From a virus, in the IMG/VR virus record IMGVR_UViG_3300032217_000984: a stretch of DNA of 16,215 bases; one strand, written 5' to 3'. A program made the translations under genes and the position numbers. Below are positions 1,846-16,215 of the stretch, one piece after another. The notes under the pieces were generated by a model. That model searched no databases. It was not told where the DNA came from and was given only the letters and a program-made list of their open reading frames with translations. How positions within the stretch are numbered: position 1 is the first letter of the stretch; every line of letters starts with the position of its first letter.

Positions 1846-2997
1846 ATGCCGCGCGTGGGATTCCTCTCGCGCATTTTCGGCTACTCGAACGCCGTGGTGG
1901 TCTACAACACCCCACCCGCGTCGGCACCTGTTGCCATCACGCAGATCCCTGCGGTGGTGCGCGCTATCCAGCTGATTTCCGCCGACATTGCGCGCCTGCC
2001 GATCAACATCGAACGCGAAGACGGCACCCTGGTGGATTCCCCTGTGGCGTCGCTCCTGAACCGGGAAGCCAGCCGCTGGCAGTCTTCCTTTGAGTTCCGA
2101 CGATACCTCACGTCCTGCGCGCTGAATGACGGTAACGGCATCGCCGTCATCCGCCGCGACAACAACGGAATGGTGGTCGAACTGCAGCCCGTGCCCATCG
2201 GCTCCGTGGTGGCCGAGCTGACCGAAGAGGGCGTTCAGTACCGAATCAACAACGTGGTGCTGACGCAGGATCAGGTGCTGCACGTTGGTGCGTTCCCCGA
2301 CCCGATGAACCCGGCGTGGTTCGTGTCGCCGCTGGATGCGTCGGCGTTCGCCATGCGCCTGGCAGCGGACCAAGAGGCAGCACATCGCGCACTGGTTGCC
2401 ACGGGAAGTACGGGCAAGATTGCAATCCGACACCCGGGCGCGCTGGCCGACGAATCCGTCGAAGCCATCCGCAACGCCTGGCAGTCGATGCACGCCACCG
2501 CTGACGGTGCCAGCCGCCCGCTGATCCTGCGGGAAGGCATGACTGCGGAACGCATCAGCCAGGAAACCAGCACCAGCAGCATCGATTCCCGGCGTTTCAG
2601 CGTGCAGGAAATCGGGCGCGCGTTCGGCGTGCCGCCCGAAATGCTGTTCCAGCAGGGCGGCGGCGCGCTGTCCAGCCAGGCGGAAACGGCGCGCGCCTAC
2701 GCCGACGGCGCCATCAGCGCCTGGGCAACGGCATGGGAAGCAGAACTTACGCGCAAGTTGTGCGCGCCTGGCGAGTACGTGACCATTGACACGCGCCCCA
2801 TCACGCGCGGCAGCCTGAAGGATCAGGGCACGGCATGGAGCAAGTTGGTGTTGGCTGGCATCGCCAGCCCGAACGACGCGCGCCTGGCCATCGGCCTGCC
2901 GCCGCTGGTTGGTTACGACACGCCGACGGTGTCCATGCCTGGCGGCGCAGCCGCTGCCGCGTTTGCACCCGACACGGAGGGCACGGGCAATGATTGA
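1846..2997 (+). CDS. Portal protein (HK97-family)
   Basis: 383-aa ORF between terminase and protease. The N-terminal AVVRAIQLISADIARLP, NDGNGIAVI and C-terminal SVQEIGRAFGVPPEML segments resemble conserved HK97-type portal blocks. Confidence 0.88.
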   Translation: MPRVGFLSRIFGYSNAVVVYNTPPASAPVAITQIPAVVRAIQLISADIARLPINIEREDGTLVDSPVASLLNREASRWQSSFEFRRYLTSCALNDGNGIAVIRRDNNGMVVELQPVPIGSVVAELTEEGVQYRINNVVLTQDQVLHVGAFPDPMNPAWFVSPLDASAFAMRLAADQEAAHRALVATGSTGKIAIRHPGALADESVEAIRNAWQSMHATADGASRPLILREGMTAERISQETSTSSIDSRRFSVQEIGRAFGVPPEMLFQQGGGALSSQAETARAYADGAISAWATAWEAELTRKLCAPGEYVTIDTRPITRGSLKDQGTAWSKLVLAGIASPNDARLAIGLPPLVGYDTPTVSMPGGAAAAAFAPDTEGTGND

Positions 2998-3514
2998 AAT
3001 TCGCACCGGGACGCTGCGCGCAGACGCTGGCAAGTTGGGCGGCTATGCCGCCATCTACAACGCGCCGAGCAAGCCGCTGACCATCCGTGGCCTGAACGGC
3101 GGCAAACCGTTCGTGGAACGCATCGCGCCCGGTGCATTCGATGGCATCGAAGGGCGCAACGTGTCGCTGCTCATTGGGCACGACCGCAGCCAGCTGCTGG
3201 CGAACAGTGCCTCCGGCTTGCTGTCGCTCCGTTCCGATGGCACTGGCCTGGCCTACGAAGTGACCCTGCCGGACACCCAGCGCGCCCGCGACGTGCGCGC
3301 GTTGGTGGAAGCAGGCGTCATGACGGAGATGTCTTTCGGTTTCTACGTGAAGTCTGACGCCTGGAATGGATCGGAACGCACCCTGCATTCCGTCGATCTC
3401 CGGGAGATTTCGATTATCGAAGCGGACGGCGCTGCATATCCGCAGACGAGTGCCGAAGCGCGAAACACCAACGCCGGAATCAACCGGCTCAAACTGCGGC
3501 TAAGGAGCGTTTGA
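2990..3514 (+). CDS. Prohead maturation protease (HK97 / peptidase S78-like)
   Basis: The internal ATG at 2990 overlaps the portal stop by 8 nt. Motifs FVERIAPGAF, LLIGHD and SFGF...LREISII match the HK97 prohead protease pattern. Position between portal and capsid also fits. Confidence 0.85.
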   Translation: MIEIRTGTLRADAGKLGGYAAIYNAPSKPLTIRGLNGGKPFVERIAPGAFDGIEGRNVSLLIGHDRSQLLANSASGLLSLRSDGTGLAYEVTLPDTQRARDVRALVEAGVMTEMSFGFYVKSDAWNGSERTLHSVDLREISIIEADGAAYPQTSAEARNTNAGINRLKLRLRSV

Positions 3515-3515
3515 A

Positions 3516-4742
3516 ATGAAGATTTCCGAGATGCATGAGAAGCGCAAGGCGCTTACCGCCGAGCGGGACACGATTCTGACCGCGTCCGAAATGACTGTCG
3601 AGCAGGAAGCGCGCGGCCACGAAGTCGCCAACGAACTGCAGAAGCTCGATGGCGAGATCCGCGCCGCGCAGATGCGCGAGCGTTTCGCGTCCTACAGCGC
3701 GATGGAGAAGGCCGTCGAAGACGGCAACAAGCGCAACACCGATTGGACCGCAACGACCGAGTACCGCGACCAGTGGATCAACTGGTGCCGTGGTGGCCGT
3801 GCGCCGGAAACCCGCGCCATCGACACGTCGTCGTCCAGCGGCGTGCTGGTCCCGAAGATCTACGAAGCCGGGATCCTGAAGTACCTGGAGCGGAACACCG
3901 TGGTCCGCAACCTGGCCGACCTGCGTACGGGCGTCAAGGGCAGCGTGACCATGCGCGTCAACACCCTGGAAACCGACGCGGCTACGTCGTCGTTCTGGAC
4001 CACCGAGTCCAGCAAGACGGCGACGGCCATTGACGGCGCGTGGGCCGAAGTCAACATGAACCCCGTCGGCGGTCTGCCGAAGTCGGAACTGACGCAGTGG
4101 GTTGTGCGGCAGTCGGATTTCGACGTTGAAACCGAAGTCATGGACAATTTGCAGCGGCAGATTGCCCGTGGTTTGGAGTACGGCTACACCATCGGCACCG
4201 GCAGCGATCAGCCCACCGGCCTGTTCCTGCAGAACGCTAATTTCAAGGGCCTGAGCACCGCCTACAGCGCGGCGCACGCCAGCGGTGCAGGTTGGGATGC
4301 TGCATTCACCGTGGCGCGCCTCACCGAGCTGCGCTACAAGACGCTGCCCGCTGAGTACTGGTCGTCCGCTGCGTGGATCATGTCGCAGGACGCGTACTAC
4401 GCCATCGCGCAGCTGGTCTCTGCGTCCGGTTCCAATGTGCCGCTGTTCGTGCCGTCGTCCGACGCTGGCATCACCAATGCGGCGCCGTTCACGCTGATGG
4501 GACGGCCGGTGTACATCGCACCGTACGCCCCGGGCCGTCAGACGGCAGCCGTGTCGAACAGCATCCCGCTCATGTTCGCCAACGTGTCCGAAGCGTTCGC
4601 CATCCGCGAGTGGGGCGGTGTGAATATGTTCCGCGACGATGTGACCACCCCAGGACTGGTCAAGTTCCAGGGCATGGTGTTCACCAACAGCAAGGTGATC
4701 CGGCCGAAGGCCGTCGCCGCGCTGCGCATCACCCTCACCTGA
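3516..4742 (+). CDS. Major capsid protein (HK97 fold) with N-terminal coiled-coil delta-like region
   Basis: 408-aa ORF with an AAGGAG RBS at 3502-3507. It has a charged helical N-terminus (EKRKALTAERD...) followed by a capsid-like core, and lies immediately after the protease. Confidence 0.9.
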   Translation: MKISEMHEKRKALTAERDTILTASEMTVEQEARGHEVANELQKLDGEIRAAQMRERFASYSAMEKAVEDGNKRNTDWTATTEYRDQWINWCRGGRAPETRAIDTSSSSGVLVPKIYEAGILKYLERNTVVRNLADLRTGVKGSVTMRVNTLETDAATSSFWTTESSKTATAIDGAWAEVNMNPVGGLPKSELTQWVVRQSDFDVETEVMDNLQRQIARGLEYGYTIGTGSDQPTGLFLQNANFKGLSTAYSAAHASGAGWDAAFTVARLTELRYKTLPAEYWSSAAWIMSQDAYYAIAQLVSASGSNVPLFVPSSDAGITNAAPFTLMGRPVYIAPYAPGRQTAAVSNSIPLMFANVSEAFAIREWGGVNMFRDDVTTPGLVKFQGMVFTNSKVIRPKAVAALRITLT

Positions 4743-4760
4743 TAGATCCTTTCATCCGGC

Positions 4761-4790
4761 CGGGGTGGGTGGGTTCGCCCACCCACCCCG
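4761..4790 (+). other. Perfect 13-bp stem with TTCG loop just downstream of the major capsid gene (RNA stabiliser/attenuator candidate)
   Basis: Sequence is C GGGGTGGGTGGG TTCG CCCACCCACCCC G. No T-tract follows, so it is not a canonical intrinsic terminator. Confidence 0.6.
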
Positions 4791-4805
4791 CGCTAGGGGA
4801 TCACA

Positions 4806-5285
4806 ATGCCCATCGACCAAACCAAGGTGCGGAACTGGTCCCGAAAGGGACATACCGAAGACGATACCGCGCTGGGCATCGCGTGGGAAGCCGCGAAGCG
4901 CGAGCTTGAGATGCGCACCGGCTGGTGCGTCGATCCCGTCACGCGCACGCAGTACGTCGCTGCGGAACCGAACAGCGACGAACTGCTGGTACGCCTGGAA
5001 CGCCAACCGGTGACGGCCGTGACGTATTCGGATGCCGATGGCACGGCGGGAACGGCAACCTTGGTCACTATCAACGGCATTCAGTACGCCACGATGTTGG
5101 ACGGGCTGTCATATCCGGTGGTGCTGACGGTGTCCGCTGGCACCAACACGCTAAACCCACTGCTCGAAATGGCCCTGCTGCAGCGCACGATTCAGCTGGA
5201 AGCAAGCCGTGGCGACGACACGATGACGCTGCCGGGCGACTACTGGGACCGCATTTGCCGAATGCTCGGCAAGGGCATCGGGTAA
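4806..5285 (+). CDS. Head-tail connector protein (gp6-like)
   Basis: 159-aa ORF, first after the capsid gene. The N-terminal pattern (VRNW.R....DD..L......AAKRELE..TGW) resembles gp6-like head-tail connector proteins. Confidence 0.68.
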   Translation: MPIDQTKVRNWSRKGHTEDDTALGIAWEAAKRELEMRTGWCVDPVTRTQYVAAEPNSDELLVRLERQPVTAVTYSDADGTAGTATLVTINGIQYATMLDGLSYPVVLTVSAGTNTLNPLLEMALLQRTIQLEASRGDDTMTLPGDYWDRICRMLGKGIG

Positions 5286-5288
5286 GCC

Positions 5289-5633
5289 GTGCCCGGACAC
5301 GTTCCAACCGGGATGCTCCGCATCCCCATGACGGTGCAGAACCCGGTGCGAACCGTGGACGCGTTCGGCCAGGCGAACGAAGCGTGGATCAGCATCGGCA
5401 CCGTGTGGTGCCACGTCGAAGTCGCCAACACGATGGAAGTGGTCGATGACATGGGTCCAGCGGTTCGCACCGATTGGCGGATGCTTGCTACCTGGCACCC
5501 GTCGATCACGACACGCAGCCGCTTGCAGTGGACCGACAGTGGCAGCACGCGGACGTTTAACGTGCGCGCCTGCTGGGACCGCGACCAGCGGCGCAGGCGG
5601 CTCGAAATCGAAGCAACGGAGGTGCTGCCGTGA
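5289..5633 (+). CDS. Head closure / head-tail joining protein (SPP1 gp16-like)
   Basis: 114-aa ORF with a GTG start 3 nt after the upstream stop. The pattern LRIPMTVQ...D.FGQ....W..IGTVWCHVE is typical of this family, and the synteny fits. Confidence 0.62.
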   Translation: MPGHVPTGMLRIPMTVQNPVRTVDAFGQANEAWISIGTVWCHVEVANTMEVVDDMGPAVRTDWRMLATWHPSITTRSRLQWTDSGSTRTFNVRACWDRDQRRRRLEIEATEVLP

Positions 5634-6112
5634 TTAAGTTCACCGCTGATTCTTCCTCTGCCCAGGCTGTCCTGAATGGCCTTCCCCGTGCGCTGTCGGA
5701 GTCGATACGGAAAAAGGCCATTCGGGCAGCCCTGCAGCCGTATGTGAAGACCCTACGGCAGAAATGGCAAGCGTCGTCATACCGTGGCAAGGCACCGCAC
5801 CGCAAGGCAATTGCAGCTGCCACGCAGTTGTCTTCCCCCAAGCGCATTGGAAACGGTGATACGGCCACGATCCGCGCGGAGCTGGGCGTTCAGTACGGGC
5901 GCAAAGGCGGTGCAAAGGCCCGCGGACGCCAACGCGTGTACCACTTGCTCGAGCAGGGATTCAGGCACGTTGCATCCGGCAAGTCGGTTCCTGGTGCAAA
6001 CCGCAGTCTGGCATGGTCGCACGCGAATGTGGCGCGCGCCATGCAGGACGTAGCGGACCAAATCATCATCCAGGCACGCAAAGCGTTGGGGGATAAGAAT
6101 GTCCGTAACTAA
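5630..6112 (+). CDS. HK97 gp10-like tail completion / neck protein
   Basis: 160-aa ORF with a GTGA overlap on the upstream gene. It has the gp10-like layout (N-terminal L..LP.AL segment, later HLLEQGFRH resembling the vEfGt block). Assigned partly by position. Confidence 0.5.
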   Translation: MIKFTADSSSAQAVLNGLPRALSESIRKKAIRAALQPYVKTLRQKWQASSYRGKAPHRKAIAAATQLSSPKRIGNGDTATIRAELGVQYGRKGGAKARGRQRVYHLLEQGFRHVASGKSVPGANRSLAWSHANVARAMQDVADQIIIQARKALGDKNVRN

Positions 6113-6503
6113 CATCCATAAGGCGATATTTGACGTGTTGGACGGCACAGGGAACCCAGTCTGCAGCGGTTTGCGCACCGCCGCGACGCCCACCCCGTGC
6201 TACGTCTACGAAGTCACCAGCATGGAAATGGCCGTGCAGATGCGCGGCGCGGGTGCGCTGAACCACTGGACCGTCGGCGTCGAAGTGAACTGCGTTGCCG
6301 ATACGGTGGCTGACGTCTGCACGCTGATTGACGACGTAATCGCGGAACTGGACAACGGCCCGCTAAACTACACGGCATTTAAATGCAGCATCGCGCTGGC
6401 ATCGTTCGCCATCGCGTTTAGCACCGCTACGCCCGACGACGGGCAGCAGGACGCCGAACGCGTCGGCACCATCACATTGACCCTACTGGTCCAGGAGGAC
6501 TAA
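6099..6503 (+). CDS. Tail terminator-like protein (possible DUF3168-type), assigned by position
   Basis: 134-aa ORF overlapping the upstream gene by 14 nt, lying immediately before the tail tube gene. Confidence 0.4.
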   Translation: MSVTNIHKAIFDVLDGTGNPVCSGLRTAATPTPCYVYEVTSMEMAVQMRGAGALNHWTVGVEVNCVADTVADVCTLIDDVIAELDNGPLNYTAFKCSIALASFAIAFSTATPDDGQQDAERVGTITLTLLVQED

Positions 6504-6505
6504 CT

Positions 6506-6889
6506 ATGGCACTTATCACAGGCTACGGTGGCACGGTTTCGTTCAGCGGGCAGTCTTCCACGAAGGCGAAGTCGATCACCATCAACATGGAACGCGACTC
6601 TTTGGACATTACTGCGCTTGGAGATTTCATTACCAAGCGCGCCCCAGGCCGCGTCCGTCGTTCTGGAACTTTGTCGCTCTATCGCGATTCGTCAACGGAT
6701 ACCGCGTTGAAGTCGCACATGTTCCCGACGACGTTGGTTCTTGCTACTGGCGCAACGCTGACGTTGTCCTACACCGATCAGGGAGGAGTCGCGTATTCAT
6801 CAATGAATGTGCAAATCACTAGCGCGTCGATTTCCGATGATGGCACCGGTGCAGCAATGTGGGAGCTCACCTGGGAGGAGCAGGGTTGA
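6506..6889 (+). CDS. Major tail (tube) protein, small type
   Basis: 127-aa, beta-rich sequence in the position between terminator and chaperone. Its size resembles short tube proteins of GTA-like or small siphoviral tails. Confidence 0.55.
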   Translation: MALITGYGGTVSFSGQSSTKAKSITINMERDSLDITALGDFITKRAPGRVRRSGTLSLYRDSSTDTALKSHMFPTTLVLATGATLTLSYTDQGGVAYSSMNVQITSASISDDGTGAAMWELTWEEQG

Positions 6890-7167
6890 GCATCGACCCG
6901 GCCAAGATCGCACCAGCCGCGCCGCGTACCGTCGAAATCAACGGTATTGGTCCTGTGCTAATTCGACGCCCGCGCCTGGCTGACTTGCTGACGGCAAACG
7001 CGAACCCGTACTGGTGGGCAGCCTGTTGCACCTGCCCGGACGGATCGCCGCTGTTTGCGCCCGGCACCGACATTGGATCCATTGACGCGGAAATCGCCGG
7101 GGCACTGATTGCTGAGGTAAATGCCACCCGCCCTACACAGCCGCCGAAAGGCGGCACTGGCGCATAG
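6886..7167 (+). CDS. Tail assembly chaperone (gpG-like)
   Basis: TTG 6886 overlaps the tube gene stop (TTGA) and sits 6 nt after a strong GGAGGAG (6873-6879). GTG 6859 is an alternative start. The sequence (V.INGIG.V.IRR....D......C.C.PDGSPLF) and the position before the tape measure fit a tail chaperone. Confidence 0.55.
   Translation: MSIDPAKIAPAAPRTVEINGIGPVLIRRPRLADLLTANANPYWWAACCTCPDGSPLFAPGTDIGSIDAEIAGALIAEVNATRPTQPPKGGTGA
7141..7154 (+). other. CCGCC-GAAA-GGCGG hairpin (GNRA-type tetraloop) at the 3' end of the chaperone gene
   Basis: Read directly: a 5-bp perfect stem with a GAAA loop, 11 nt before the TAG stop at 7165-7167. Confidence 0.5.
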
Positions 7168-7190
7168 CCAGCCCGGAGCAGCGACTACAG

Positions 7191-7334
7191 ATGGATGCAG
7201 CACTATCCAACCACCTGACCAGTGAGGAACGCAGAGAACACCTGCTAGGCGTTATTGCCTGCGCGCTGACAGGGCAGCGGCCGCATCAACTGTTCCCATG
7301 GCTACGCACGGATCCGGGGGTTTTCAATGGCTGA
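7191..7334 (+). CDS. Possible gpT-like extension ORF of the tail chaperone (47 aa from ATG 7191; frame open from 7116)
   Basis: Hand translation gives MDAALSNHLTSEERREHLLGVIACALTGQRPHQLFPWLRTDPGVFNG*. It lies in the -1 frame relative to the chaperone, fills the otherwise empty 7168-7326 gap, and ends overlapping the tape-measure ATG (ATGGCTGA). It has no obvious RBS of its own. Confidence 0.3.
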   Translation: MDAALSNHLTSEERREHLLGVIACALTGQRPHQLFPWLRTDPGVFNG

Positions 7335-8031
7335 CAGGTCCATGAAGGCAGTGATTCGCGCAGAGGTTGACCCGCGTGGTGTTGTCAGCGGCGTAGCAGC
7401 AACCAACAAAGAACTGCAGAAGCTCAACAAAACTGCAGCCAGCGCGTCTACGTCGGCGGCTATCTCCGCTGGCATCAGCATGGCGCAGATGGGTATGTCT
7501 GCGCTGCAGCAGGTATTTGCGGCTGTTGAACGTCGTTTTGGCGAGCTGAACAACATCGCCAACAAATATTCCGCAGCAGCAGCCGGTGCGCGCATGGCCG
7601 CCGACGTGGCGATCATCCAGGACAATGTGCGTATTGCGAACGCATTGGCACCAGGCGCGATTCAGGCTTCTCAAGCGGAAGTTGATATCAAGGCAGGCGA
7701 AGCGGCGCGTATGCAACGCAACGCTGGTGCAGTCAACTCCGGCATGGGAGCTTTTGCGCGTACGAAGGGGAACCTTGGCGCCATCACGGACATGGGAACC
7801 GAGATCGCAGGTACAGCGTTGGCTGGAATCGAACAGTTGCTCGGCGGAGATCTATCCGGTTTCATGAAGACCAACGAAGCCGGTCGCGCCCAAATAGGAG
7901 AACTGTTTAACGCGCAGAACTACGCTTACGCCAATGAAACGCCAGGGCGGGGCATGGCTGGCGATACGCAGATGGCCGAGCAAACCGAACTGTTAAGGCA
8001 AATCCGAGACGGTCTGAGGGGTGGACGCTAA
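7327..8031 (+). CDS. Tape measure protein, unusually short (234 aa)
   Basis: Ala/Gly/Gln-rich and predicted helical, with small hydrophobic stretches. It sits directly after the chaperone pair and before the tail-tip genes. Confidence 0.6.
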   Translation: MADRSMKAVIRAEVDPRGVVSGVAATNKELQKLNKTAASASTSAAISAGISMAQMGMSALQQVFAAVERRFGELNNIANKYSAAAAGARMAADVAIIQDNVRIANALAPGAIQASQAEVDIKAGEAARMQRNAGAVNSGMGAFARTKGNLGAITDMGTEIAGTALAGIEQLLGGDLSGFMKTNEAGRAQIGELFNAQNYAYANETPGRGMAGDTQMAEQTELLRQIRDGLRGGR

Positions 8032-8948
8032 TGGGCATTGTGCAAGTCATCGAACGGGTAAACAGCCGAACATGGAATCTCCAGCAGAAAGGCACGGAAT
8101 GCAGTGTCACGTGCACATATTTGGCGAGCTGGCTTCCAAGCAGTGCCGGCGATCCATACCCAGGCGAAGGCACCATCTTTGTCGATTCAAACTTTCCGAA
8201 GCCAACCACTAGGGCTCCGGCAAGTCTGCACGCAAACGATGCTTACGTGAAACAGATGATTTGCCGAACGGTGACCATGGCGCCGGAAACATCAAGGCCA
8301 TACACCTGGCAAGTTCAGGCCACCTACACTAGTAATTTCAACCCGTATTCCACTGGTGTATATGCGCGAATAACGAAATCAGCCAGCGAACGCACGCTCG
8401 GCCAATACCGCGAATTTACCTCCATTCCAACCAACGGCACGGTTGCCTTCCCACCGGCCGACATGGGCGGCAACAAACTCGACCTCCACGGCACGCCAAG
8501 GCCGCTGTCGGTGTCACAAGAGACGATCACGCTGGAATATCTCCATGACCGTACGACCTCAGCGACCAATACTGTGGCCGATCCGGATTGGTACACCTTT
8601 GGCTTGGCGCAAGGAACGCGCAATTCGGTAAACATGTTTAATGGCGTTTACGCGCCTGGCTCATTGCTTTACAAGGGTTGCCAGGCAACGCTTGAACAGG
8701 AGTCGTGGAGACTGGTACACGTTTGGCTATTCGATAACTACCAGCACCTTGAGCAAATCACTTGCCCAAACCCAACCGGCCAACCAGCGCTTGCTGCCAC
8801 TGGTACGTTCGATGGCGTCACCGGATTCATGCAGGCGACAAAAGTCGGCTGGTATCAACGCTATCCAACGCTCAGAAATCACTTGTCGATGCTTCCTGCA
8901 AACATCCAGACTGAACTGACCAGCGCGTACCCGGCGGTAGCACCATGA
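8031..8948 (+). CDS. Tail-tip protein (distal tail / hub candidate), no recognised family
   Basis: 305-aa ORF with a TAATG overlap on the tape measure gene. Function is assigned by position only. GC content is lower than in the head module. Confidence 0.45.
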   Translation: MGIVQVIERVNSRTWNLQQKGTECSVTCTYLASWLPSSAGDPYPGEGTIFVDSNFPKPTTRAPASLHANDAYVKQMICRTVTMAPETSRPYTWQVQATYTSNFNPYSTGVYARITKSASERTLGQYREFTSIPTNGTVAFPPADMGGNKLDLHGTPRPLSVSQETITLEYLHDRTTSATNTVADPDWYTFGLAQGTRNSVNMFNGVYAPGSLLYKGCQATLEQESWRLVHVWLFDNYQHLEQITCPNPTGQPALAATGTFDGVTGFMQATKVGWYQRYPTLRNHLSMLPANIQTELTSAYPAVAP

Positions 8949-9469
8949 CATACATGGACCCAATATTTAGCCAGGGATTGATGGGTAAGGCCAACAGCCA
9001 CGTTTGCAATGCCTGGACAAACGCTGCTCGGTTTGCGCAGAGCAGTGCTGAAGCTGTTGATTGGGCGCAGCAGCAGGCAAGACGTCCGCTGGTGATGGCG
9101 CGCGCACTTTGTCAGATTACCAATGCAAGCGTCATTCCAGGAAAGGTGAACCAGTGGAATTACACCATCAGCCTCTGGCACGTTCCTCCTCCGTCAGGAA
9201 CCGGCGGATACTTCCCACCTGCCGATACGTGGTTCACCACAACGAAGTGCAAGAACCTGCGCGAGTACTGGAACGACATAACAAACGTGGACGGCATGAG
9301 CTTGAGCTCGCCACCTGCGTCAATTGGACCGGTCGGAAGCTTTTGGACTGGGACACATTGGACTACGTCAGAGCTTCGTGCTCATGCTGAAGTTTCCATT
9401 GTCTACGACACTTCCGGAGAAGCCTACTTTTACTTCGATCGTCCAAACCCCATGAGGTGTACCGAGTAA
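8945..9469 (+). CDS. Tail-tip protein, no recognised family
   Basis: 174-aa ORF with an ATGA overlap on the upstream gene. Trp/Thr-rich. Function is assigned by position only. Confidence 0.4.
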   Translation: MTYMDPIFSQGLMGKANSHVCNAWTNAARFAQSSAEAVDWAQQQARRPLVMARALCQITNASVIPGKVNQWNYTISLWHVPPPSGTGGYFPPADTWFTTTKCKNLREYWNDITNVDGMSLSSPPASIGPVGSFWTGTHWTTSELRAHAEVSIVYDTSGEAYFYFDRPNPMRCTE

Positions 9470-9515
9470 TGCCGAACCTTCAGCTTGCTACCTACATTGG
9501 AACGGAGGTGCTCCA

Positions 9516-10865
9516 GTGATCCAAAACATGATGCGCAAAGCGATGTTTGGTGAACCGTCGCTCAACGGCCCCAAACTGTACGGCAGCACTCGGGCATCCA
9601 CGTTTGTCAAGGACCTTGCTTCCGGCGCTGACAGCCTGGACGTCGTATTCATCGGCGATAGTAACACCATGTCGGCGGTCGCCGGTTCTTGGGGCTACCA
9701 CAACGGAATAAGCGCAGCAATGAACGCCAGGGGATGGGCTTGCTATGGAACGGCTGTCTACCCAACAATGACAGGATGGACGCCCGCCGGTGGTGCGTAT
9801 TCGCTCGGCGGATGGCAGAGCAATTGTTACCTGATGCAACCAACCGGCAACCTTGCCAGCGGAAACGCGTCGGGTGGAGGTACGGCATACCAAACGTGGA
9901 CGCCTGGATCAAATTGGACGCGATACGGATCGTACACAGCGTCCCCGCCAGCAAAGGATGATTGGGCTTACATCGCTTCCGGAACGTACTCGGACAACTA
10001 CAACGCGGTCGAACTGTTTGCAGCGCATCCGCTCAACTCCAATTCGCTCACGCTGCACCACCGAATCATCTACGGCACGTTCACCTTTGGTACTGGATCG
10101 TTTCGGGGCCGCACCCGTGCGTACAACGACGGTACGGTGTACGCAACCGGGGCTTCGCAATCGACGCTTGGCGGTTCGTACTCCGTCAATGCGTACGAAT
10201 ACTCGTTCACGCCGCAGGGCGTGTATCTGAATTCCTCATGGAGCGGACCGACAGCTACTGGACCGTGCGCCATCCTGTCTCACAGCATCTACTGCAAGCG
10301 CAAGGGGTGGTCTGTCACCAGCCACGGCTACATTACTGGCGGCGACAGCACCACGATTGCCAGCGTGATTACGGGGATTGGGAATACCCCTTTGCAGAAT
10401 CAACTGCAAGAGCTACGCGCCAGGCAGATTTCCGCGGGGGGAACGGGGCGAGTGTTGATCGTGGCACACTCCGGAATCAACGGTGCGGACACATCGACCA
10501 CCTGGACGACTGCCCATCAGAACATTTGGGACACCTACAAGGCTGCATGGTCTGCGCTCGGATTTCCTGCCAATGATCTTGCAATGGTTTCGTTTGTTGG
10601 TGTTCAGAGGAACTCCGCGGACACAAGCAACAATTCGGCAAGCCTTGCTGCTGTTCGTGACGGAGCGAAGACGTTTGGATTGCAGGCAAATGGGCTCACC
10701 GTTGCCCACATGCCGTCGATCATCACGTACTCCGAGCTGATCGGTCCACCGTATCTCTATCAGACGGGAACTACTGGCGACGCCCATCTGTCGGGCGGTT
10801 CCGGCAGCACGACCGACGGCTACCGGGAAGTGTCCGACCGTCTACTTACGGCGTTGCTGGCATGA
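9516..10865 (+). CDS. GDSL/SGNH-type esterase-like protein (candidate receptor-modifying tail fibre, or alternatively a lytic enzyme)
   Basis: GTG start 7 nt after GGAGG (9504-9508). Block I-like VVFIGDSNT (GDS at nt 9654-9662), block III-like VAHSGINGAD and a C-terminal GDAHL. The D-x-H spacing is not the canonical DxxH. Confidence 0.5.
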   Translation: MIQNMMRKAMFGEPSLNGPKLYGSTRASTFVKDLASGADSLDVVFIGDSNTMSAVAGSWGYHNGISAAMNARGWACYGTAVYPTMTGWTPAGGAYSLGGWQSNCYLMQPTGNLASGNASGGGTAYQTWTPGSNWTRYGSYTASPPAKDDWAYIASGTYSDNYNAVELFAAHPLNSNSLTLHHRIIYGTFTFGTGSFRGRTRAYNDGTVYATGASQSTLGGSYSVNAYEYSFTPQGVYLNSSWSGPTATGPCAILSHSIYCKRKGWSVTSHGYITGGDSTTIASVITGIGNTPLQNQLQELRARQISAGGTGRVLIVAHSGINGADTSTTWTTAHQNIWDTYKAAWSALGFPANDLAMVSFVGVQRNSADTSNNSASLAAVRDGAKTFGLQANGLTVAHMPSIITYSELIGPPYLYQTGTTGDAHLSGGSGSTTDGYREVSDRLLTALLA

Positions 10866-11167
10866 AGCTTGCTGCGGCCATCATCGCGCTGTCGCTCGCC
10901 GGTTGCACCAACCACACCGCGGCTATTGCCCATTCGGCCATTGACGCCCGCCAGGCGTTGGGGTCCGCCATCGTCCACGTAGACGCCGCGCGCCGCGACC
11001 TGGACACGCTGCAGGCGTCCGTGGACGAAGTATCAATGCACGTTGCTTTTGTTTCGGACGACGAGAACCAGATTTATGCCACGCTGCAGTACGTTTCCGT
11101 GGCGGCAATTGTCATCGGCGGCGCAGCCGCCCTATACACCATTCGGAATTGGATACCAATCCCATGA
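10862..11167 (+). CDS. Lipoprotein with C-terminal transmembrane helix (u-spanin-like topology; alternatively Llp/Cor-like exclusion lipoprotein)
   Basis: Signal peptide plus lipobox MKLAAAIIALSLAG|C. Helical middle region. C-terminal hydrophobic LQYVSVAAIVIGGAAALYTI followed by RNWIPIP. ATGA overlaps at both ends. Confidence 0.6.
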   Translation: MKLAAAIIALSLAGCTNHTAAIAHSAIDARQALGSAIVHVDAARRDLDTLQASVDEVSMHVAFVSDDENQIYATLQYVSVAAIVIGGAAALYTIRNWIPIP

Positions 11168-11298
11168 ACCTGGCACCATGGCAATACACGATATGGATGG
11201 CGTCCCTGCTGCTCGTCACCTTCGCGTCGGGGTGCAGCATCGGGTTGACGGCAGGCCGTAAGCAGAAAGTGAAGGCATCGAATGCTCGCAAGCGCTGA
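11164..11298 (+). CDS. 44-aa single-pass membrane (or small lipo-) protein, not in the supplied ORF track
   Basis: Hand translation gives MNLAPWQYTIWMASLLLVTFASGCSIGLTAGRKQKVKASNARKR*. Its ATG overlaps the upstream stop (ATGA). It has a hydrophobic core, then a basic tail, and ASGC is a weak lipobox. Confidence 0.45.
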   Translation: MNLAPWQYTIWMASLLLVTFASGCSIGLTAGRKQKVKASNARKR

Positions 11299-11395
11299 AA
11301 GTCTCCTGGGCAGTCTCGCATTCGCGGCTGCGATGGCCCTGTCCGGCCTGATCGCCGGATACCTGGTCTGCCGGCGGAGCAAGGAAACGAAGTGA
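11282..11395 (+). CDS. 37-aa single-pass membrane protein, not in the supplied ORF track
   Basis: Hand translation gives MLASAESLLGSLAFAAAMALSGLIAGYLVCRRSKETK*. It overlaps the upstream micro-ORF by 17 nt, and its stop overlaps the GTG of the next gene (GTGA). One TM helix plus a basic tail. Confidence 0.4.
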   Translation: MLASAESLLGSLAFAAAMALSGLIAGYLVCRRSKETK

Positions 11396-12219
11396 GCAGA
11401 AAACGCTGCTGCTGCGGAGGATCTCCACCACCGGCTTATCCGTGCCAGCCGTGCCCGTCTGGCGAAGGGCACGAATGGATCGTGCAAGTCATCACTGATG
11501 GCATCATTGGTGACAGCGCAGGCTATGGCGTTGTAAATGACATCGACTATTACCAATCATGTCTGGCCGGTGACTGCGGTCGCCGGATGTTTGTCAGGCG
11601 TGGCGGATCAAATACGGATCTATCGTTTTGCGATGAAGTGTGCGATTCCATCGTGGATAGTCCTGGTGCATCTGACGCTGGTGACCACACGATCAGATGG
11701 TCATTCTGTAGCGTGGTAAACCCTACGGACTTACCAGGTAGTCCGTACCTACCAGACATCCTCAACGACCAGGAGGGAGCCGTGACAATTGAAGCTGTGC
11801 TTCCAAACCGGCAGTGGGATTTCACCAATTGTGTACCTTTTGGTGGCGGCATCCCTGGAGAGGATTGCGCGACCATTATCAAAGTGTCTTTTACGTATTC
11901 CGATACGTTCACTTATCCGCAATGGGATGACGTAGGCGACGGTTGTTTCAGCACGACTCGCACCATCACCATGCCGACGCAAGTTTGGACTTGTTGGTAC
12001 GCACGCCGCGTCGCAGCTGGGCAGTTTTTTGCAGAGGGCACGTACTACCTGCTGCGTTGCGAATATCCAGCCGCGTACGACACAGTGGGCGGAAACCCGC
12101 CGTTCTACAAGTGCCGGATCGGCAACGGCGTGGTTTGTTCGTCCCAGCACGGCGTTTCAATATCACCACCGACCATATGGAAACCACCCGCCAACATCAA
12201 CCTGGTGCGCCTCTCCTGA
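11392..12219 (+). CDS. Cysteine-rich protein of unknown function (17 Cys in 275 aa; N-terminal RKRCCCGG)
   Basis: Long ORF coupled to the upstream membrane micro-ORFs. I recognise no family. Paired Cys spacings are CQPC, C..DC and C...C. Confidence 0.55.
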   Translation: MSRKRCCCGGSPPPAYPCQPCPSGEGHEWIVQVITDGIIGDSAGYGVVNDIDYYQSCLAGDCGRRMFVRRGGSNTDLSFCDEVCDSIVDSPGASDAGDHTIRWSFCSVVNPTDLPGSPYLPDILNDQEGAVTIEAVLPNRQWDFTNCVPFGGGIPGEDCATIIKVSFTYSDTFTYPQWDDVGDGCFSTTRTITMPTQVWTCWYARRVAAGQFFAEGTYYLLRCEYPAAYDTVGGNPPFYKCRIGNGVVCSSQHGVSISPPTIWKPPANINLVRLS

Positions 12220-12254
12220 CCCGCCTCCGCTACCGGTGGAAGGGCGAAGAGCAG

Positions 12255-12458
12255 ATGCGGTGCTTTCACATCGTGGAAGGCGAACCCGTGGCTGCCGATT
12301 GTCCGCCAAAGTTCACCGGCCTGGGCGACGTGATCGCCGACGGCACAAAGGCGCTCGGGGTACACCCGTGCGGCAAGTGCAAGAAACGCCAGGCGTGGCT
12401 GAACCGCTGGACGCCCGCCTGGCTGGCAGGTCTGATATCGCGGATTCGTTCCCGTTGA
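12255..12458 (+). CDS. 67-aa CxxC mini-protein with amphipathic/hydrophobic C-terminus
   Basis: Internal ATG 12255 of the 11943..12458 frame, preceded by GGAAGGGCGAAGAG. Sequence MRCFHIVEGEP...GLGDVIADGTKALGVHPCGKCKKRQAWLNRW. The upstream part of that frame overlaps the Cys-rich gene and looks non-coding. Confidence 0.45.
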   Translation: MRCFHIVEGEPVAADCPPKFTGLGDVIADGTKALGVHPCGKCKKRQAWLNRWTPAWLAGLISRIRSR

Positions 12459-12459
12459 A

Positions 12460-12858
12460 TTGTGGTGGATTGTGGTGCAGATTGACTACAATCCTGGAAT
12501 GAATCCAAGCATCCGGACGGCTATGGAAAGACGCGACGCCACCAGGGGCGAATGGTGGCTGGCGCGCATGGATACAGACCCGCCAGGCCAATGGACGCTG
12601 ACGGCAGACCCGGCTGGCCCGTGGGATTGGCGTTTCAAGGTGGGGTCTTGCAAGTCGCGCGCGGTGCAACGCCTGCGCGCAGCTGCAGATAGGGAAGCGA
12701 ATAACAGGCGCAGGTTACTGGCCACGCCTGAACACGCAAAAAAGTGTGTTACGGGGCAGGGAAATCTACTTGCAATTCCGGGACTGACCGATACTATCTC
12801 CGCCAAGCGCGGATTGCACCAGTTTGCGGTGGATGCTGATAACGTTGTCCCTGTTTAA
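12460..12858 (+). CDS. Hypothetical protein (start uncertain: TTG 12460, GTG 12472/12475 or ATG 12499)
   Basis: 132-aa ORF, Trp/Arg-rich. Last gene before the AT-richer intergenic gap. No family recognised. Confidence 0.4.
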   Translation: MWWIVVQIDYNPGMNPSIRTAMERRDATRGEWWLARMDTDPPGQWTLTADPAGPWDWRFKVGSCKSRAVQRLRAAADREANNRRRLLATPEHAKKCVTGQGNLLAIPGLTDTISAKRGLHQFAVDADNVVPV

Positions 12859-15357: not shown

Positions 15358-15884
15358 ACGACGATGTGAGTGGCGTCGGCGTTGGTCCCGGTGCGCGTCG
15401 CACCGGGGCCTACAGCCGCCGCAAGGGAAAGAACGGCGAGCTTGAAGCCTGCGTTGTCATGGAGGCCGTGCTGGGCTTCCCCTGGCGCCGCACCGCTCAA
15501 CGGCGTGGCGATGGCACCGCCGACATTGAACCCGTGGACGGCGGGCGCATTGCCATCCACGTCGAAGTGAAGCGATACCAGGGGGGGTTGAAGTGGTGGA
15601 CCAACCGGCTGGCGGGATCGGATCGCGTGCACCTGGTCGATGCAAGTGGGTTGCTCATTGCCCGAGTCGAAGCAATTCGTAACGCCATGTTGCAAGACGG
15701 CGACCTTGCAACTGCGCCAAGGCAGGGTTGCGCCGAGAAATGGATGAAGCAAGCCGTTCGGGATGCGGAAGACGGATTGATCCCGGTGGTGCTGTGTCGC
15801 CAGGACAGGGGGCCGTGGATCCTGGCATGGCGATACGCGGACGACGATGCCCTAATGGCCATTCTGCGGAGGGCAATGGCGTGA
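15354..15884 (+). CDS. Hjc-like PD-(D/E)xK nuclease (candidate Holliday-junction resolvase)
   Basis: RKGKNGELEACVVMEAVLGFPWRRT...GDGTADIEP...IAIHVEVKR matches the kG..gE....L..G....R...G....D....-EvK pattern of Hjc-type resolvases. ATGA overlap upstream. Confidence 0.5.
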   Translation: MNDDVSGVGVGPGARRTGAYSRRKGKNGELEACVVMEAVLGFPWRRTAQRRGDGTADIEPVDGGRIAIHVEVKRYQGGLKWWTNRLAGSDRVHLVDASGLLIARVEAIRNAMLQDGDLATAPRQGCAEKWMKQAVRDAEDGLIPVVLCRQDRGPWILAWRYADDDALMAILRRAMA

Positions 15885-16159
15885 AGCGCCTCCGATTCAA
15901 CGGAGGCCTAGGAGAGGCGGCTAAGGCCGTTGCTGTGCCACGCAGTAGAGGCGGCACATGGACCAGGCTGGCCAAGTTGCACAAGGCGTGTCATCCCCAG
16001 TGCGTCGATTGCGGCAGCATCGTCGGCATTGAGACCGATCACGTAATACCGTTGCACCTTGGCGGCACCAACGCGTGGGGCAACCTTGCCAGTAGGTGCC
16101 ATGAGTGCCACTCGCGCAAGTCTGCAATCGAACAGCAGAAGAGGCAAGGGCTTACGTAA
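15881..16159 (+). CDS. HNH endonuclease (terminase-associated position)
   Basis: GTG 15881 overlaps the upstream stop (GTGA). Motifs CVDCG...ETDHVIPLHLGGTNAWGNLASRCHECHSRK supply the zinc-ligand pairs and the H-N-H residues. It is the last gene before the terminase, as in HK97-like cos phages. Confidence 0.8.
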   Translation: MKRLRFNGGLGEAAKAVAVPRSRGGTWTRLAKLHKACHPQCVDCGSIVGIETDHVIPLHLGGTNAWGNLASRCHECHSRKSAIEQQKRQGLT

Positions 16160-16173
16160 TGCCACGAAAGCAG

Positions 16174-16198
16174 CCCCCCCCCGCCCCCCCGGGGGGGG
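16174..16198. other. C9-G-C7-G8 homopolymer block at the genome junction; C7G7 is self-complementary. Candidate packaging/cos-related element, or part of the TerL N-terminal coding sequence.
   Basis: Read directly. The C7G8 part is duplicated at 1-15. Confidence 0.5.
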
Positions 16199-16215
16199 CC
16201 ATTCCTGTTGGGCAC
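16184..16215. repeat. Right copy of the 32-bp direct terminal repeat
   Basis: Identical to bases 1-32. Confidence 0.95.

What the first reader, a model, noticed from the sequence alone, without database searches (positions are those of the whole stretch)
10862..12858. Tightly coupled block of membrane, lipo- and Cys-rich proteins with no recognisable family, sitting where a lysis cassette should be
Seen in sequence: six consecutive ORFs are chained by ATGA/GTGA or short overlaps. They are a lipoprotein with a C-terminal TM helix, 44-aa and 37-aa single-TM peptides with basic tails, a 275-aa protein with 17 cysteines, a 67-aa CxxC peptide and a 132-aa Trp/Arg-rich protein. Nowhere in the 16.2-kb genome can I see a canonical endolysin (lysozyme, transglycosylase, amidase or peptidase motifs), and no other gene set could plausibly effect host lysis. 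Inference: this block is one of three things. It may be a non-canonical lysis system, with small holin-like TM peptides, a u-spanin-like lipoprotein and an unrecognised muralytic or membrane-active factor that could be the Cys-rich protein or the upstream SGNH esterase. It may be a superinfection-exclusion / host-takeover module. Or it may be something undescribed. It also has lower and patchier GC than the head and replication modules, which suggests accessory or mosaic origin.
Basis: partly seen in the sequence, partly recalled or inferred. Interest (0 to 1): 0.85.

Follow-up and report, generated by a model that had tools for sequence, protein, structure and literature searches.

The report
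Membrane trio plus swappable cysteine-rich cassette
At the end of the tail genes of a small uncultured phage sit three conserved membrane proteins that look like the membrane half of a lysis system, followed by a cysteine-rich protein and a small partner that are swapped between close relatives the way host-recognition genes are, and no cell-wall-cutting enzyme can be found in about 100 related genomes.

Summary
The ORFs are real and conserved, but the block is two separate things. Part 1 is a conserved backbone trio: a lipoprotein with a C-terminal TM helix (10862-11167) and two tiny single-pass membrane peptides (11164-11298, 11282-11395). They are the only membrane proteins in the genome and are present in every related locus that covers the region. 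Their topology fits a unimolecular spanin plus holin/antiholin-type peptides. Part 2 is a swappable cassette. The 275-aa Cys-rich protein keeps only an N-terminal M-x4-CCC tag. Its body occurs in at least 9 mutually unalignable types (260-620 aa, 11-44 Cys), none with a Pfam match. The window's type gives a confident all-beta model with no structural match. The next gene is 93 aa, not 67. Its N-terminal half co-varies with the Cys-rich type, and its C-terminal GLGD-CxxC domain follows the phage backbone. This pattern fits a second host-specificity protein with its adaptor or chaperone better than an endolysin, although no virion evidence exists. The upstream SGNH protein occupies the classical receptor-binding slot. 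The '132-aa' ORF is probably a 119-aa accessory gene. No peptidoglycan hydrolase was found in the window or among the group's accessory genes, and that remains unexplained. All function calls are inferred.

The parts
9516..10865 (+). Context, cassette 1. A 449-aa SGNH-type esterase in the tail-fibre / receptor-binding slot. Only its first ~11 residues (MIQNMMRKAMF) are shared with the different fibre bodies found in relatives.
   Evidence: S49, G60/64, N322 and H424 are invariant in 30 homologues, and 3 of 30 hit Lipase_GDSL_2. DNA homology to L028 and L003 stops at 9548 and resumes at about 10860. A 269-aa Gly-rich protein in L003 carries the same N-terminus. Among the non-window cluster representatives, three of them fibre-slot families, Pfam finds Mtd_N, pectate-lyase beta-helix, Gly_rich_2, Laminin_G_3 and End_N_terminal.
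10862..11167 (+). A 101-aa lipoprotein with a C-terminal TM helix (u-spanin-like). It has a signal peptide with lipobox LAGC (Cys15 at 10904-10906), Thr at +2, a periplasmic part of about 60 aa that is Ala-rich and probably helical with a conserved YVSDDE motif, a TM helix at about residues 73-91, and a short basic tail.
   Evidence: Sequence and hydropathy. The single Cys is the lipobox Cys. The alignment of 11 diverse homologues keeps G14 and C15 invariant, and every member retains a C-terminal hydrophobic stretch. Homologues were found in 97 IMG/VR loci and in every locus that covers the region.
11164..11298 (+). tm1: a 44-aa single-pass peptide, inferred N-out/C-in, with a conserved GC near the cytoplasmic end of the helix and a tail ending ARKR.
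   Evidence: The ATGA overlap with the lipoprotein gene is shown.
11282..11395 (+). tm2: a 37-aa single-pass peptide, inferred N-out/C-in, with small-xxx-small (glycine-zipper-like) spacing and a conserved Cys followed by R/K at the membrane boundary.
   Evidence: It overlaps tm1 by 17 nt. Its stop overlaps the start of the next gene by 4 nt in 75 of 75 loci.
11392..12219 (+). A 275-aa Cys-rich all-beta protein. Residues 1-9 (11392-11417, MSRKRCCCG) form the conserved N-terminal tag. The body belongs to the 'WKPP' type.
   Evidence: 17 Cys. Ten body Cys are conserved (nine invariant, one near-invariant), and no Glu, His or Ser is invariant. The AF2 model has pLDDT 83.6 and pTM 0.83. Foldseek against PDB and BFVD finds nothing below E about 0.09. 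The profile finds nothing among PDB sequences. tblastn finds nothing in GenBank phages. CCC lies at residues 6-8 in 72 of 75 loci.
11418..12397 (+). Cassette 2, the swappable segment: the body of the Cys-rich gene plus the 5' half of the partner gene.
   Evidence: Window versus L028: homology runs 10863-11417, breaks, and resumes at 12398-12587. There are at least 9 body types with no cross-similarity by BLAST. For the two other types tested by hhalign, only the first 16-34 residues align. The window's GC minimum of 0.518 lies here.
12177..12458 (+). A 93-aa partner protein. Its type-specific N-terminal part is predicted as beta strands (residues 14-40, low confidence). It carries a conserved GLGD...PCxxC...R..LN domain (about 12318-12410) and a C-terminal amphipathic basic helix (about 12411-12455).
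   Evidence: The revised start rests. PHROG phrog_32048 matches at E=1.2e-9. The profile finds 1115 representative clusters. The N-terminal half co-varies with the Cys-rich type and the C-terminal half with the backbone. The hydrophobic moment is 0.27 for the window's own C-terminal helix and 0.48-0.63 for the six variants from relatives. The AF2 model has low confidence at pLDDT 62.
12499..12858 (+). It is not part of the conserved module.
   Evidence: Homologues start at the Met that corresponds to 12499. The family was detected in roughly half of the loci that cover the region, 38 loci in the clustering. It has no family match.

Best explanation
The block is two adjacent modules, not one system.

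Module A (10862-11395) is a conserved backbone set of envelope proteins, most likely the membrane part of the phage's lysis apparatus. The lipoprotein is lipid-anchored at its N-terminus, with outer-membrane sorting inferred from the residue at +2. Its C-terminal TM helix holds it in the inner membrane, so it bridges the periplasm like a unimolecular spanin. It would fuse or rupture the two membranes at the end of infection. The two 37-44-aa N-out/C-in peptides would accumulate in the inner membrane and permeabilise it, acting as a holin/antiholin-type pair.

Module B (11392-12458) is a host-specificity cassette. The Cys-rich beta protein is proposed to be a second receptor-binding or tail-tip protein. 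It would dock through its invariant N-terminal polybasic-CCC tag, possibly to the conserved C-terminal Cys of the 174-aa hub-like tail protein. The 93-aa partner would be its dedicated adaptor or chaperone: its variable N-half recognises the particular Cys-rich body, and its conserved GLGD-CxxC domain and amphipathic helix contact a constant phage or membrane component. The SGNH fibre upstream would be the independent first specificity determinant, a polysaccharide-modifying fibre.

Shown: gene structure, conservation, predicted topology, cassette breakpoints, co-variation, independent assortment, and the absence of known families. Inferred: every function, the orientation of the peptides in the membrane, and presence of the Cys-rich protein in the virion.
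For: Module A. The lipobox and C-terminal TMD are kept throughout an 11-sequence alignment down to 20% identity, and homologues occur in 97 IMG/VR loci. There is no periplasmic Cys, and residue +2 is Thr, Ala or Ser. These match the published definition of u-spanins (PMC6139136). The three proteins are the only TM proteins in the genome, are tightly coupled, and are present in every locus that covers the region. The lipoprotein does not co-vary with either variable protein, which argues against a receptor-blocking role.

Module B. There are at least 9 unalignable Cys-rich body types behind one tag. Recombination breakpoints lie exactly after the tag and in the middle of the partner gene. The partner's N-half co-varies with the body type and its C-half with the backbone. 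Fibre types and Cys-rich types assort independently, which parallels the two-receptor arrangement of phage T5: lateral fibres plus pb5 (PMC12750041). In the unrelated phage L015 the Cys-rich and partner genes directly follow a homologue of the 174-aa hub-like tail protein (hhalign E=0.0046, full length). The lipoprotein and tm2 homologues lie 7 kb away, next to that phage's fibre gene. The hub-like protein ends in a conserved Cys in 49 of 50 loci. No Glu, His or Ser is invariant in the Cys-rich family, and ten types give no Pfam hit.
Against: There is no experimental or proteomic evidence of any kind. No endolysin was found, so a spanin/holin reading of module A leaves the lysis system incomplete. 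The periplasmic part of the lipoprotein is only about 60 aa and looks helical, whereas T1 gp11 is predicted to be beta. There is no sequence similarity to any annotated spanin or holin family. Three membrane-protein genes separating a supposed tail-tip protein from the tail genes is unusual. The Cys-rich start overlaps the tm2 stop in 75 of 75 genomes, which could equally mean that the two act together. A Cys content of 6-9% is unusual for a protein that assembles in the reducing cytoplasm. The conserved docking tag is very short. The fold matches no known receptor-binding protein. The L015 argument rests on a single contig and a weak profile match.
Confidence: 0.4

Rival explanations
1. The whole block is one non-canonical lysis system. 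tm1 and tm2 open the inner membrane. The Cys-rich protein is released into the oxidising periplasm, folds with disulfides, and attacks a variable, host-specific envelope layer such as a protein layer, an unusual wall or the outer membrane, rather than conserved peptidoglycan. The lipoprotein finishes the job as a spanin. The partner protein holds the Cys-rich effector at the cytoplasmic face of the membrane until the holin fires.
For: By elimination, the Cys-rich protein is the only sizeable protein that is not assigned to the head, tail or replication modules. No peptidoglycan hydrolase was found in the window or in the accessory-gene representatives. The Cys-rich start is coupled to the tm2 stop in 75 of 75 loci. 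tm1 and tm2 each carry a conserved Cys near the cytoplasmic face, the tag is polybasic-CCC, and the partner ends in an amphipathic helix. All of this is compatible with assembly at the inner face of the membrane. High Cys content suits a protein that works outside the cytoplasm. All four families co-occur again in the unrelated phage L015.
Against: None of the at least 9 body types resembles any hydrolase. No catalytic-type residue (Glu, His, Ser) is invariant. In L015 the gene sits beside a tail-type gene, far from the membrane genes. Extreme diversification with a co-varying partner is typical of recognition proteins, not of enzymes acting on a conserved substrate. No envelope-degrading protein of this kind is known.
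Confidence: 0.2
2. These phages lyse without any wall-degrading enzyme. One or both tiny TM peptides act as a 'protein antibiotic' (amurin) that blocks a membrane step of cell-wall synthesis, as protein E of phiX174 does, or they trigger host autolysins. The lipoprotein deals with the outer membrane. The Cys-rich cassette is unrelated to lysis.
For: The pan-genome search found no hydrolase. tm1 and tm2 have an N-terminal TM helix followed by a basic cytoplasmic tail. From my own knowledge, this is the same layout as the essential part of phiX174 E. The genome is only 16 kb.
Against: To my knowledge no tailed dsDNA phage is known to use single-gene lysis. A spanin-like protein implies that the wall is removed first. 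Family searches can miss a very divergent hydrolase, because only two proteins were modelled. There is no sequence similarity to known amurins.
Confidence: 0.12
3. The five proteins form an export or surface-display pathway. The membrane trio moves or anchors the CCC-tagged Cys-rich protein to the envelope of the infected cell. There it acts in superinfection exclusion, receptor masking or protection of progeny.
For: The coupling is strict. All four families co-occur in two unrelated phage backbones. Conserved Cys residues and an amphipathic helix lie at the membrane face. Hypervariability is expected of proteins in an arms race.
Against: The Cys-rich protein has no signal peptide and no TM segment. 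The trio does not co-vary with the cargo type. Nothing matches PADLOC. The genes lie at the end of the structural gene block rather than among the early genes. No such export route is known.
Confidence: 0.1

Closest known systems
Unimolecular spanin (phage T1 gp11 type; Kongari et al. 2018, PMC6139136)
   Same: It has an N-terminal lipoprotein signal with a lipobox (LAGC here, LSGC in T1). Residue +2 is not Asp. It has a C-terminal TM helix and no periplasmic Cys. It is small and lies next to small membrane-protein genes at the end of the late genes.
   Different: It has no sequence similarity to any spanin family. Its periplasmic part is about 60 aa and looks helical, whereas that of gp11 is predicted to be beta. 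No endolysin gene is adjacent or found anywhere. The L015 homologue carries an extra cytoplasmic tail of about 60 aa.
Single-TMD holins and holin/antiholin pairs
   Same: Both are very small proteins with one TM helix, a basic C-terminal tail and small-xxx-small packing motifs. There are two consecutive overlapping genes next to a spanin-like gene.
   Different: At 37 and 44 aa they seem to me shorter than typical described holins (from memory, not checked here). The inferred orientation is N-out/C-in. They match no holin family. There is no endolysin to release.
Receptor-binding protein plus chaperone/adaptor cassettes (lambda Stf/Tfa, Mu S/U, T4 gp37/gp38, T5 pb5)
   Same: The N-terminus is conserved and the body is exchangeable. 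Recombination breakpoints lie at the module borders. A small gene immediately downstream co-varies with the variable body. There is a second, independently assorting specificity gene in the same genome.
   Different: The conserved N-terminus is only about 8 residues and is a Cys triplet. The bodies are 6-9% Cys and match no known RBP fold. The partner is a two-part protein with a widespread GLGD-CxxC domain and matches no tail-fibre assembly protein family in Pfam, PHROGs or NCBIfam. Three membrane-protein genes separate the cassette from the tail genes.
Lambda gpL-type tail-tip proteins that bind an iron-sulfur cluster through four Cys (from my own knowledge)
   Same: A Cys cluster in a tail-tip component would give a precedent for metal-mediated assembly at the tip. 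That might involve the CCC tag and the C-terminal Cys of the hub-like protein.
   Different: There is no homology. The metal-binding idea is untested here.
phrog_32048 / Nonlabens phage P12024L gp37
   Same: They share the GLGD..PCxxCKKRQ..LN core: 62% identity over 37 residues and PHROG E=1.2e-9.
   Different: In that phage the domain is N-terminal in a 119-aa protein located just upstream of the terminase, with no Cys-rich neighbour. Its function is unknown there as well.

Membership tests
Unimolecular spanin | N-terminal lipoprotein signal sequence with lipobox Cys | tested here: met
   MKLAAAIIALSLAGC. G14 and C15 are invariant in 11 diverse homologues. Every homologue sequence examined carries a lipobox.
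Unimolecular spanin | Outer-membrane sorting (no Asp at +2) | tested here: met
   Residue +2 is Thr, Ala or Ser in all homologues. The sorting rule is that of E. coli and the host is unknown.
Unimolecular spanin | C-terminal transmembrane domain | tested here: met
   The KD19 peak is 1.73 at residues 73-91, followed by a basic tail. It is conserved in all homologues.
Unimolecular spanin | No periplasmic cysteine (true of all 58 catalogued u-spanins) | tested here: met
   The only Cys is the lipobox Cys. The criterion comes from PMC6139136.
Unimolecular spanin | Part of a lysis cassette with a holin and an endolysin | tested here: inconclusive
   It is adjacent to two holin-like peptides, but no endolysin was found in the window or among the relatives' accessory genes.
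Unimolecular spanin | Sequence membership in a known spanin family | tested here: not met
   No spanin family turns up in PHROGs, Pfam or NCBIfam. tblastn finds nothing in 50,697 GenBank phages.
Unimolecular spanin | Complements an Rz/Rz1 defect and disrupts the outer membrane | not testable with these tools
   This needs an experiment.
Holin | Small protein with at least one TMD and a charged C-terminal tail | tested here: met
   tm1 scores KD19 1.81 with the tail RKQKVKASNARKR. tm2 scores KD19 2.05 with the tail CRRSKETK.
Holin | Membership in a described holin family | tested here: not met
   Only sub-threshold noise was found.
Holin | Timed lethal permeabilisation of the membrane | not testable with these tools
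   This needs an experiment.
Endolysin (for the 275-aa protein) | Recognisable muralytic domain or fold | tested here: not met
   There is no Pfam, PHROG or NCBIfam hit. Foldseek against PDB and BFVD gives a best E of about 0.09-0.11. The profile finds nothing among PDB sequences. Ten types have no Pfam hit.
Endolysin (for the 275-aa protein) | Conserved catalytic residues | tested here: not met
   The invariant columns are Cys, Gly, Trp, Tyr, Pro, Arg, Asp, Thr and a few aliphatic residues. No Glu, His or Ser is invariant.
Receptor-binding protein / chaperone cassette | Conserved N-terminus with an exchangeable body, and breakpoints at the module borders | tested here: met
Receptor-binding protein / chaperone cassette | A downstream small protein co-varies with the variable body | tested here: met
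   The N-terminal half of the partner differs with each Cys-rich type, and its C-terminal half follows the backbone.
Receptor-binding protein / chaperone cassette | Homology or fold similarity to known RBPs | tested here: not met
Receptor-binding protein / chaperone cassette | Present in the virion and determines host range | not testable with these tools
   There is no cultured member and no proteome.
SGNH/GDSL hydrolase (449-aa protein) | Invariant Ser (GDS), Gly, Asn and His blocks | tested here: met
   D48-S49-N50, G60/G64, G320-x-N322 and H424 are invariant in 30 homologues of 26-72% identity. Three of the 30 match Lipase_GDSL_2, best E 1.6e-8. The window protein itself does not reach any Pfam threshold.
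Receptor-blocking lipoprotein (T5 Llp / Cor type) | Co-variation with the phage's receptor-binding protein | tested here: not met
   Lipoproteins 91-96% identical to the window's accompany different fibre types and different Cys-rich types.

The most novel reading that the evidence does not exclude
A widespread lineage of small tailed dsDNA phages carries no peptidoglycan hydrolase at all. It leaves its host by an undescribed route. One possibility is amurin-like tiny membrane peptides plus a spanin-like tether. Another is a new class of hypervariable, disulfide-rich effectors. These would be brought to the membrane by an N-terminal polybasic-CCC tag and a GLGD-CxxC adaptor and released through the small membrane peptides.
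Probability: 0.2. Interest if true: 0.85.

Novelty: new variant of a known kind. Interest (0 to 1): 0.62.

Why it matters
If module B is a receptor-binding cassette, it defines a new family of phage host-recognition proteins. The family has a new fold, a very high Cys content and an 8-residue CCC docking tag. It also suggests a first possible role for the GLGD-CxxC domain, which occurs in more than 1000 clusters of small proteins, mostly 50-140 aa, and has no known function. If the block is instead the lysis system, this would be a lineage of tailed phages with about 100 sampled genomes that lyses without a recognisable endolysin. That would bear on the long-held view that tailed phages always use one. 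In either case the lineage is widespread in metagenomes and has no cultured relative: its major capsid protein is at most 27% identical to that of any GenBank phage. That makes it a compact 16-kb model with two independently swappable specificity loci.

Tried and rejected
1. A megablast of the whole window against GenBank phages found nothing.
2. Pfam, PHROGs, NCBIfam and PADLOC on every block protein gave only sub-threshold noise, apart from phrog_32048 for the partner protein.
3. Foldseek of the confident Cys-rich model against PDB and BFVD gave no match. PDB sequence searches with profiles of the Cys-rich, 174-aa and 305-aa families, and with the single 449-aa sequence, gave no meaningful match.
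4. Host identification failed. The Cys-rich profile found nothing in 185,579 reference genomes. The capsid profile found three short MAG contigs assigned to three different phyla, which is most likely mis-binning.
5. The AF2 model of the partner protein had too little confidence to search with (pLDDT 62), so the last fold search was not used.
6. The promoter and terminator scan was uninformative, with fewer sigma-70-like sites than in shuffled sequence.
7. I considered reading tm1 as a lipoprotein because of its conserved xxGC, and rejected it. It has no positive N-region, and its strongly basic tail should stay in the cytoplasm.
8. I considered Tat export of the Cys-rich protein because of its RRR, and rejected it because no hydrophobic region follows.
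9. I considered a toxin/immunity reading of the Cys-rich/partner pair and set it aside. No toxin-like domain is present and the partner has a conserved half.
11. Literature searches for Cys-rich phage receptor-binding proteins found nothing relevant.

Full report
**What the window is.** All genes lie on the + strand. TerL (39-1799), portal, S78 protease, HK97-type capsid, head-completion protein and connector proteins are followed by a short tail module. That module has a tube-like protein at 6506-6889, two small chaperone-like ORFs, a 234-aa tape-measure-like protein, and proteins of 305 aa and 174 aa. Next come the 449-aa protein, the block under study, and a replication module. The replication module contains an RHH/ParD-like protein, a 257-aa protein (phrog_19042) at the position where relatives carry ERF recombinases, a nuclease-like protein, an O-like initiator, a PDDEXK protein and an HNH protein. 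It looks like a complete small siphovirus-type genome of about 16 kb. There is no nucleotide match in GenBank phages, and the capsid protein is at most 27% identical to any of them.

**Checking the observation.** The ORFs and most junctions are as described: ATGA, ATGA, a 17-nt overlap, and GTGA. The lipoprotein has lipobox LAGC and a C-terminal hydrophobic helix. The 44-aa and 37-aa peptides each have one helix and a basic tail. These three are the only membrane proteins in the genome, and the 275-aa protein has 17 Cys.

Two gene models need correction. The 'CxxC peptide' starts at ATG 12177, giving 93 aa and a 43-nt overlap with the previous gene. The Met at 12255 is absent in many relatives, whereas the residues upstream of it are conserved as protein. 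Database gene calls for its close homologues are mostly 93 aa. The '132-aa' ORF most likely starts at ATG 12499, giving 119 aa, and it was detected in roughly half of the relatives that cover the region. The GC dip (0.518) lies within the Cys-rich body only. The tail genes are equally low in GC.

**Relatives.** The Cys-rich protein recovered 22 protein clusters, all metagenomic, and 15 IMG/VR loci. The lipoprotein recovered 97 IMG/VR loci, most on contigs of 15-17 kb. Further contigs came from exact-protein look-ups. In every locus that covers the region the gene order is the same. The hub-like gene comes first, then the fibre, then the lipoprotein, tm1 and tm2. A Cys-rich gene and the GLGD-CxxC gene follow. 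tm2 fell below BLAST detection in a few divergent loci.

**The membrane trio is backbone.** Lipoprotein homologues keep the lipobox, a +2 residue of Thr, Ala or Ser, a YVSDDE motif, a C-terminal TM helix and a basic tail, and none has a periplasmic Cys. This meets each topological criterion of unimolecular spanins as defined by Kongari et al.: an outer-membrane lipoprotein signal plus a C-terminal TMD, with no periplasmic Cys in any of the 58 known examples. The combined periplasmic length of two-component spanins can be as short as 62 residues (PMC6139136). tm1 and tm2 are conserved single-helix peptides, each with a conserved Cys near the cytoplasmic end of the helix. None of the three matches any family in Pfam, PHROGs, NCBIfam or PADLOC, and the lipoprotein also has no tblastn match in GenBank phages. 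The trio does not co-vary with either variable protein. That argues against a receptor-blocking role of the Llp/Cor type.

**The Cys-rich gene is a swappable cassette.** In 75 of 75 loci the gene after tm2 starts 4 nt before the tm2 stop. It encodes M-x4-CCC in 72 of them and CC in the other three. After this tag the proteins fall into at least 9 types that share no BLAST similarity. They are 260-620 aa long and carry 11-44 Cys, which is 6-9% of residues. For the two other types tested, profile-profile comparison aligns only the first 16-34 residues. Ten representatives give no Pfam hit.

The window's type (36 loci) has ten conserved body Cys, nine invariant and one near-invariant, but no invariant Glu, His or Ser. 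Its AlphaFold model is confident (pLDDT 83.6, pTM 0.83) and all-beta. It has no match in PDB or BFVD.

DNA comparison with a close relative (L028) shows two breaks:
- Homology runs from 2951 to 9548.
- It breaks over the fibre body.
- It resumes at 10863-11417, covering the trio and the first 26 nt of the Cys-rich gene.
- It breaks again over the Cys-rich body and the 5' half of the partner gene.
- It resumes at 12398.

The genome therefore has two exchangeable cassettes, and their types assort independently.

**The partner protein.** Its N-terminal half is specific to each Cys-rich type. Its C-terminal half follows the phage backbone: GLGD..PCxxC..R..LN..TPxW plus an amphipathic basic helix. 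The hydrophobic moment is 0.27 for the window's own helix and 0.48-0.63 for six variants in relatives. A profile of the family finds 1115 representative clusters. Nearly all of the 150 best hits listed are proteins of 50-140 aa with very diverse N-termini. One of these is gp37 of Nonlabens phage P12024L, of unknown function. The AF2 model predicts three strands and two helices, with low confidence.

**The 449-aa protein.** Ser49 (in GDSN), Gly60/64, Asn322 and His424 are invariant in 30 homologues, and three homologues hit Lipase_GDSL_2. The protein shares only its first 11 residues with the Gly-rich protein that occupies the same slot in L003. Pfam scanning of the non-window cluster representatives, which include three fibre-slot families, found Mtd_N, pectate-lyase beta-helix, Gly_rich_2, Laminin_G_3 and endosialidase N-terminal domains. 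The tool's summary does not say which member matched which family. The 449-aa protein is therefore a receptor-binding, receptor-modifying fibre rather than a lysin.

**A second genomic context.** L015 is a 43.5-kb contig with a different capsid type and visibly lower GC. It carries the Cys-rich and partner genes directly after a protein that aligns over its full length with the 174-aa hub-like family, including the C-terminal ...PNP...C (hhalign E=0.0046). Its lipoprotein and tm2 homologues lie 7 kb upstream, next to its fibre gene. The two modules are therefore separable. One reading is that a 'fibre + trio' unit is inserted between the hub gene and the Cys-rich gene in the 16-kb phages. The hub-like protein ends in a conserved Cys in 49 of 50 loci, which suggests, but does not show, a Cys-mediated joint with the CCC tag.

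**No endolysin.** Pfam scanning of 95 representatives of the relatives' gene clusters that have no member in the window found only structural, replication and receptor-binding domains. Family searches can miss very divergent enzymes, and only two proteins could be modelled. Absence is therefore established at family level, not at fold level. A survey of phage lytic proteins also reports a minority of dsDNA phages with no recognisable lytic genes (PMC12596118).

**Interpretation.** The best-supported reading (about 0.4) has two parts. Module A is the membrane part of the lysis apparatus: a u-spanin-like tether and two holin/antiholin-like peptides. Module B is a second host-specificity cassette: a tail-tip or receptor-binding protein with a dedicated adaptor or chaperone. 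This parallels the T5 arrangement of polysaccharide-binding lateral fibres plus a separate tip receptor-binding protein (PMC12750041).

There are three rivals:
- The block is a single non-canonical lysis system with the Cys-rich protein as a host-specific envelope-breaching effector (about 0.2).
- Lysis occurs without a hydrolase, through amurin-like peptides (about 0.12).
- The block is an export or display pathway for exclusion (about 0.1).

The invariant tm2/Cys-rich coupling, the conserved membrane-face Cys residues and the missing endolysin keep these rivals alive. Every functional statement is inference, and no member of the lineage is cultured.

**Novelty.** The trio is a new family with known topology. 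The cassette behaves like known receptor-binding cassettes, but its parts are new: an 8-residue CCC tag, unmatched Cys-rich folds and a GLGD-CxxC adaptor. I rate it a new variant of a known kind, with a real chance of something more unusual if the lineage truly lacks an endolysin.

Noticed in passing
window 12318-12410; proteins P0032-P0180: The GLGD..PCxxCKKRQ..LN domain of the partner protein defines a very large family of small proteins. A profile finds 1115 representative clusters at E<=1e-3. The 150 best hits are mostly 50-140 aa, with highly diverse N-termini that are often zinc-ribbon-like. It has no Pfam model and no known function.
   Followed up: partly
window 8945-9469 (C-terminus at 9458-9466): The 174-aa hub-like tail protein ends in ...FDRPNPxRC(T/S). 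The Cys is conserved in 49 of 50 relatives and also in the distant L015 homologue. It might pair with the CCC tag of the Cys-rich protein, but this is untested.
   Followed up: partly
L015 2305-3170 and 9399-13760: A different, larger phage (43.5-kb contig) carries homologues of the lipoprotein, here with an extra cytoplasmic tail of about 60 aa, and of tm2, the fibre, the Cys-rich protein and the partner. They lie in two separate places. Next to the lipoprotein gene there is also an unrelated 96-aa TM protein, and an 891-aa protein follows the partner gene.
   Followed up: partly
L054 and L067 (both from IMGVR_UViG_3300042293_000483, 33,237 bp); L073 and L089 (both from the 19,783-bp contig IMGVR_UViG_3300042349_000308): Two contigs each contain two copies of the lipoprotein module. 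In the 33-kb contig the two copies carry different Cys-rich types (439 aa and 609 aa). This could be a chimeric assembly of two co-occurring phages or a genuine tandem arrangement.
   Followed up: no
L102-L104: Close relatives of the capsid gene sit on short contigs binned into MAGs of Actinomycetota, Bradymonadia and Hyphomicrobiaceae, two of them from 'Deming' bins. The inconsistent taxonomy suggests that phage contigs were mis-binned, so these records should not be used to assign a host.
   Followed up: partly
window 6859-7167 and 7191-7334: Two small ORFs lie between the tube-like gene and the tape-measure-like gene, in the position of the tail assembly chaperone pair. I did not look for a programmed frameshift.
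   Followed up: no
window 15728-16159 and 39-1799: An HNH endonuclease gene lies at the end of the window, next to the large terminase gene at its start. From my own knowledge, HNH-TerL adjacency is typical of cos-type packaging. It suggests that the window is a complete genome. A GC-only hairpin (GCCCCCCCGGGGGGGGC) lies at 16183-16199.
   Followed up: no
window 9516-10865; proteins P0181-P0279: The SGNH fibre family is broad. It comprises 99 clusters, some on contigs of up to 58 kb, so it also occurs in other phage types. Some members carry added endosialidase beta-barrel, TIG or dockerin domains.
   Followed up: partly
L024/L025 compared with the window: The lipoprotein and tm1 are 70-74% identical to the window's, while the capsid protein is only 27-28% identical. 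The membrane trio itself has therefore moved between distant backbones of the lineage.
   Followed up: no
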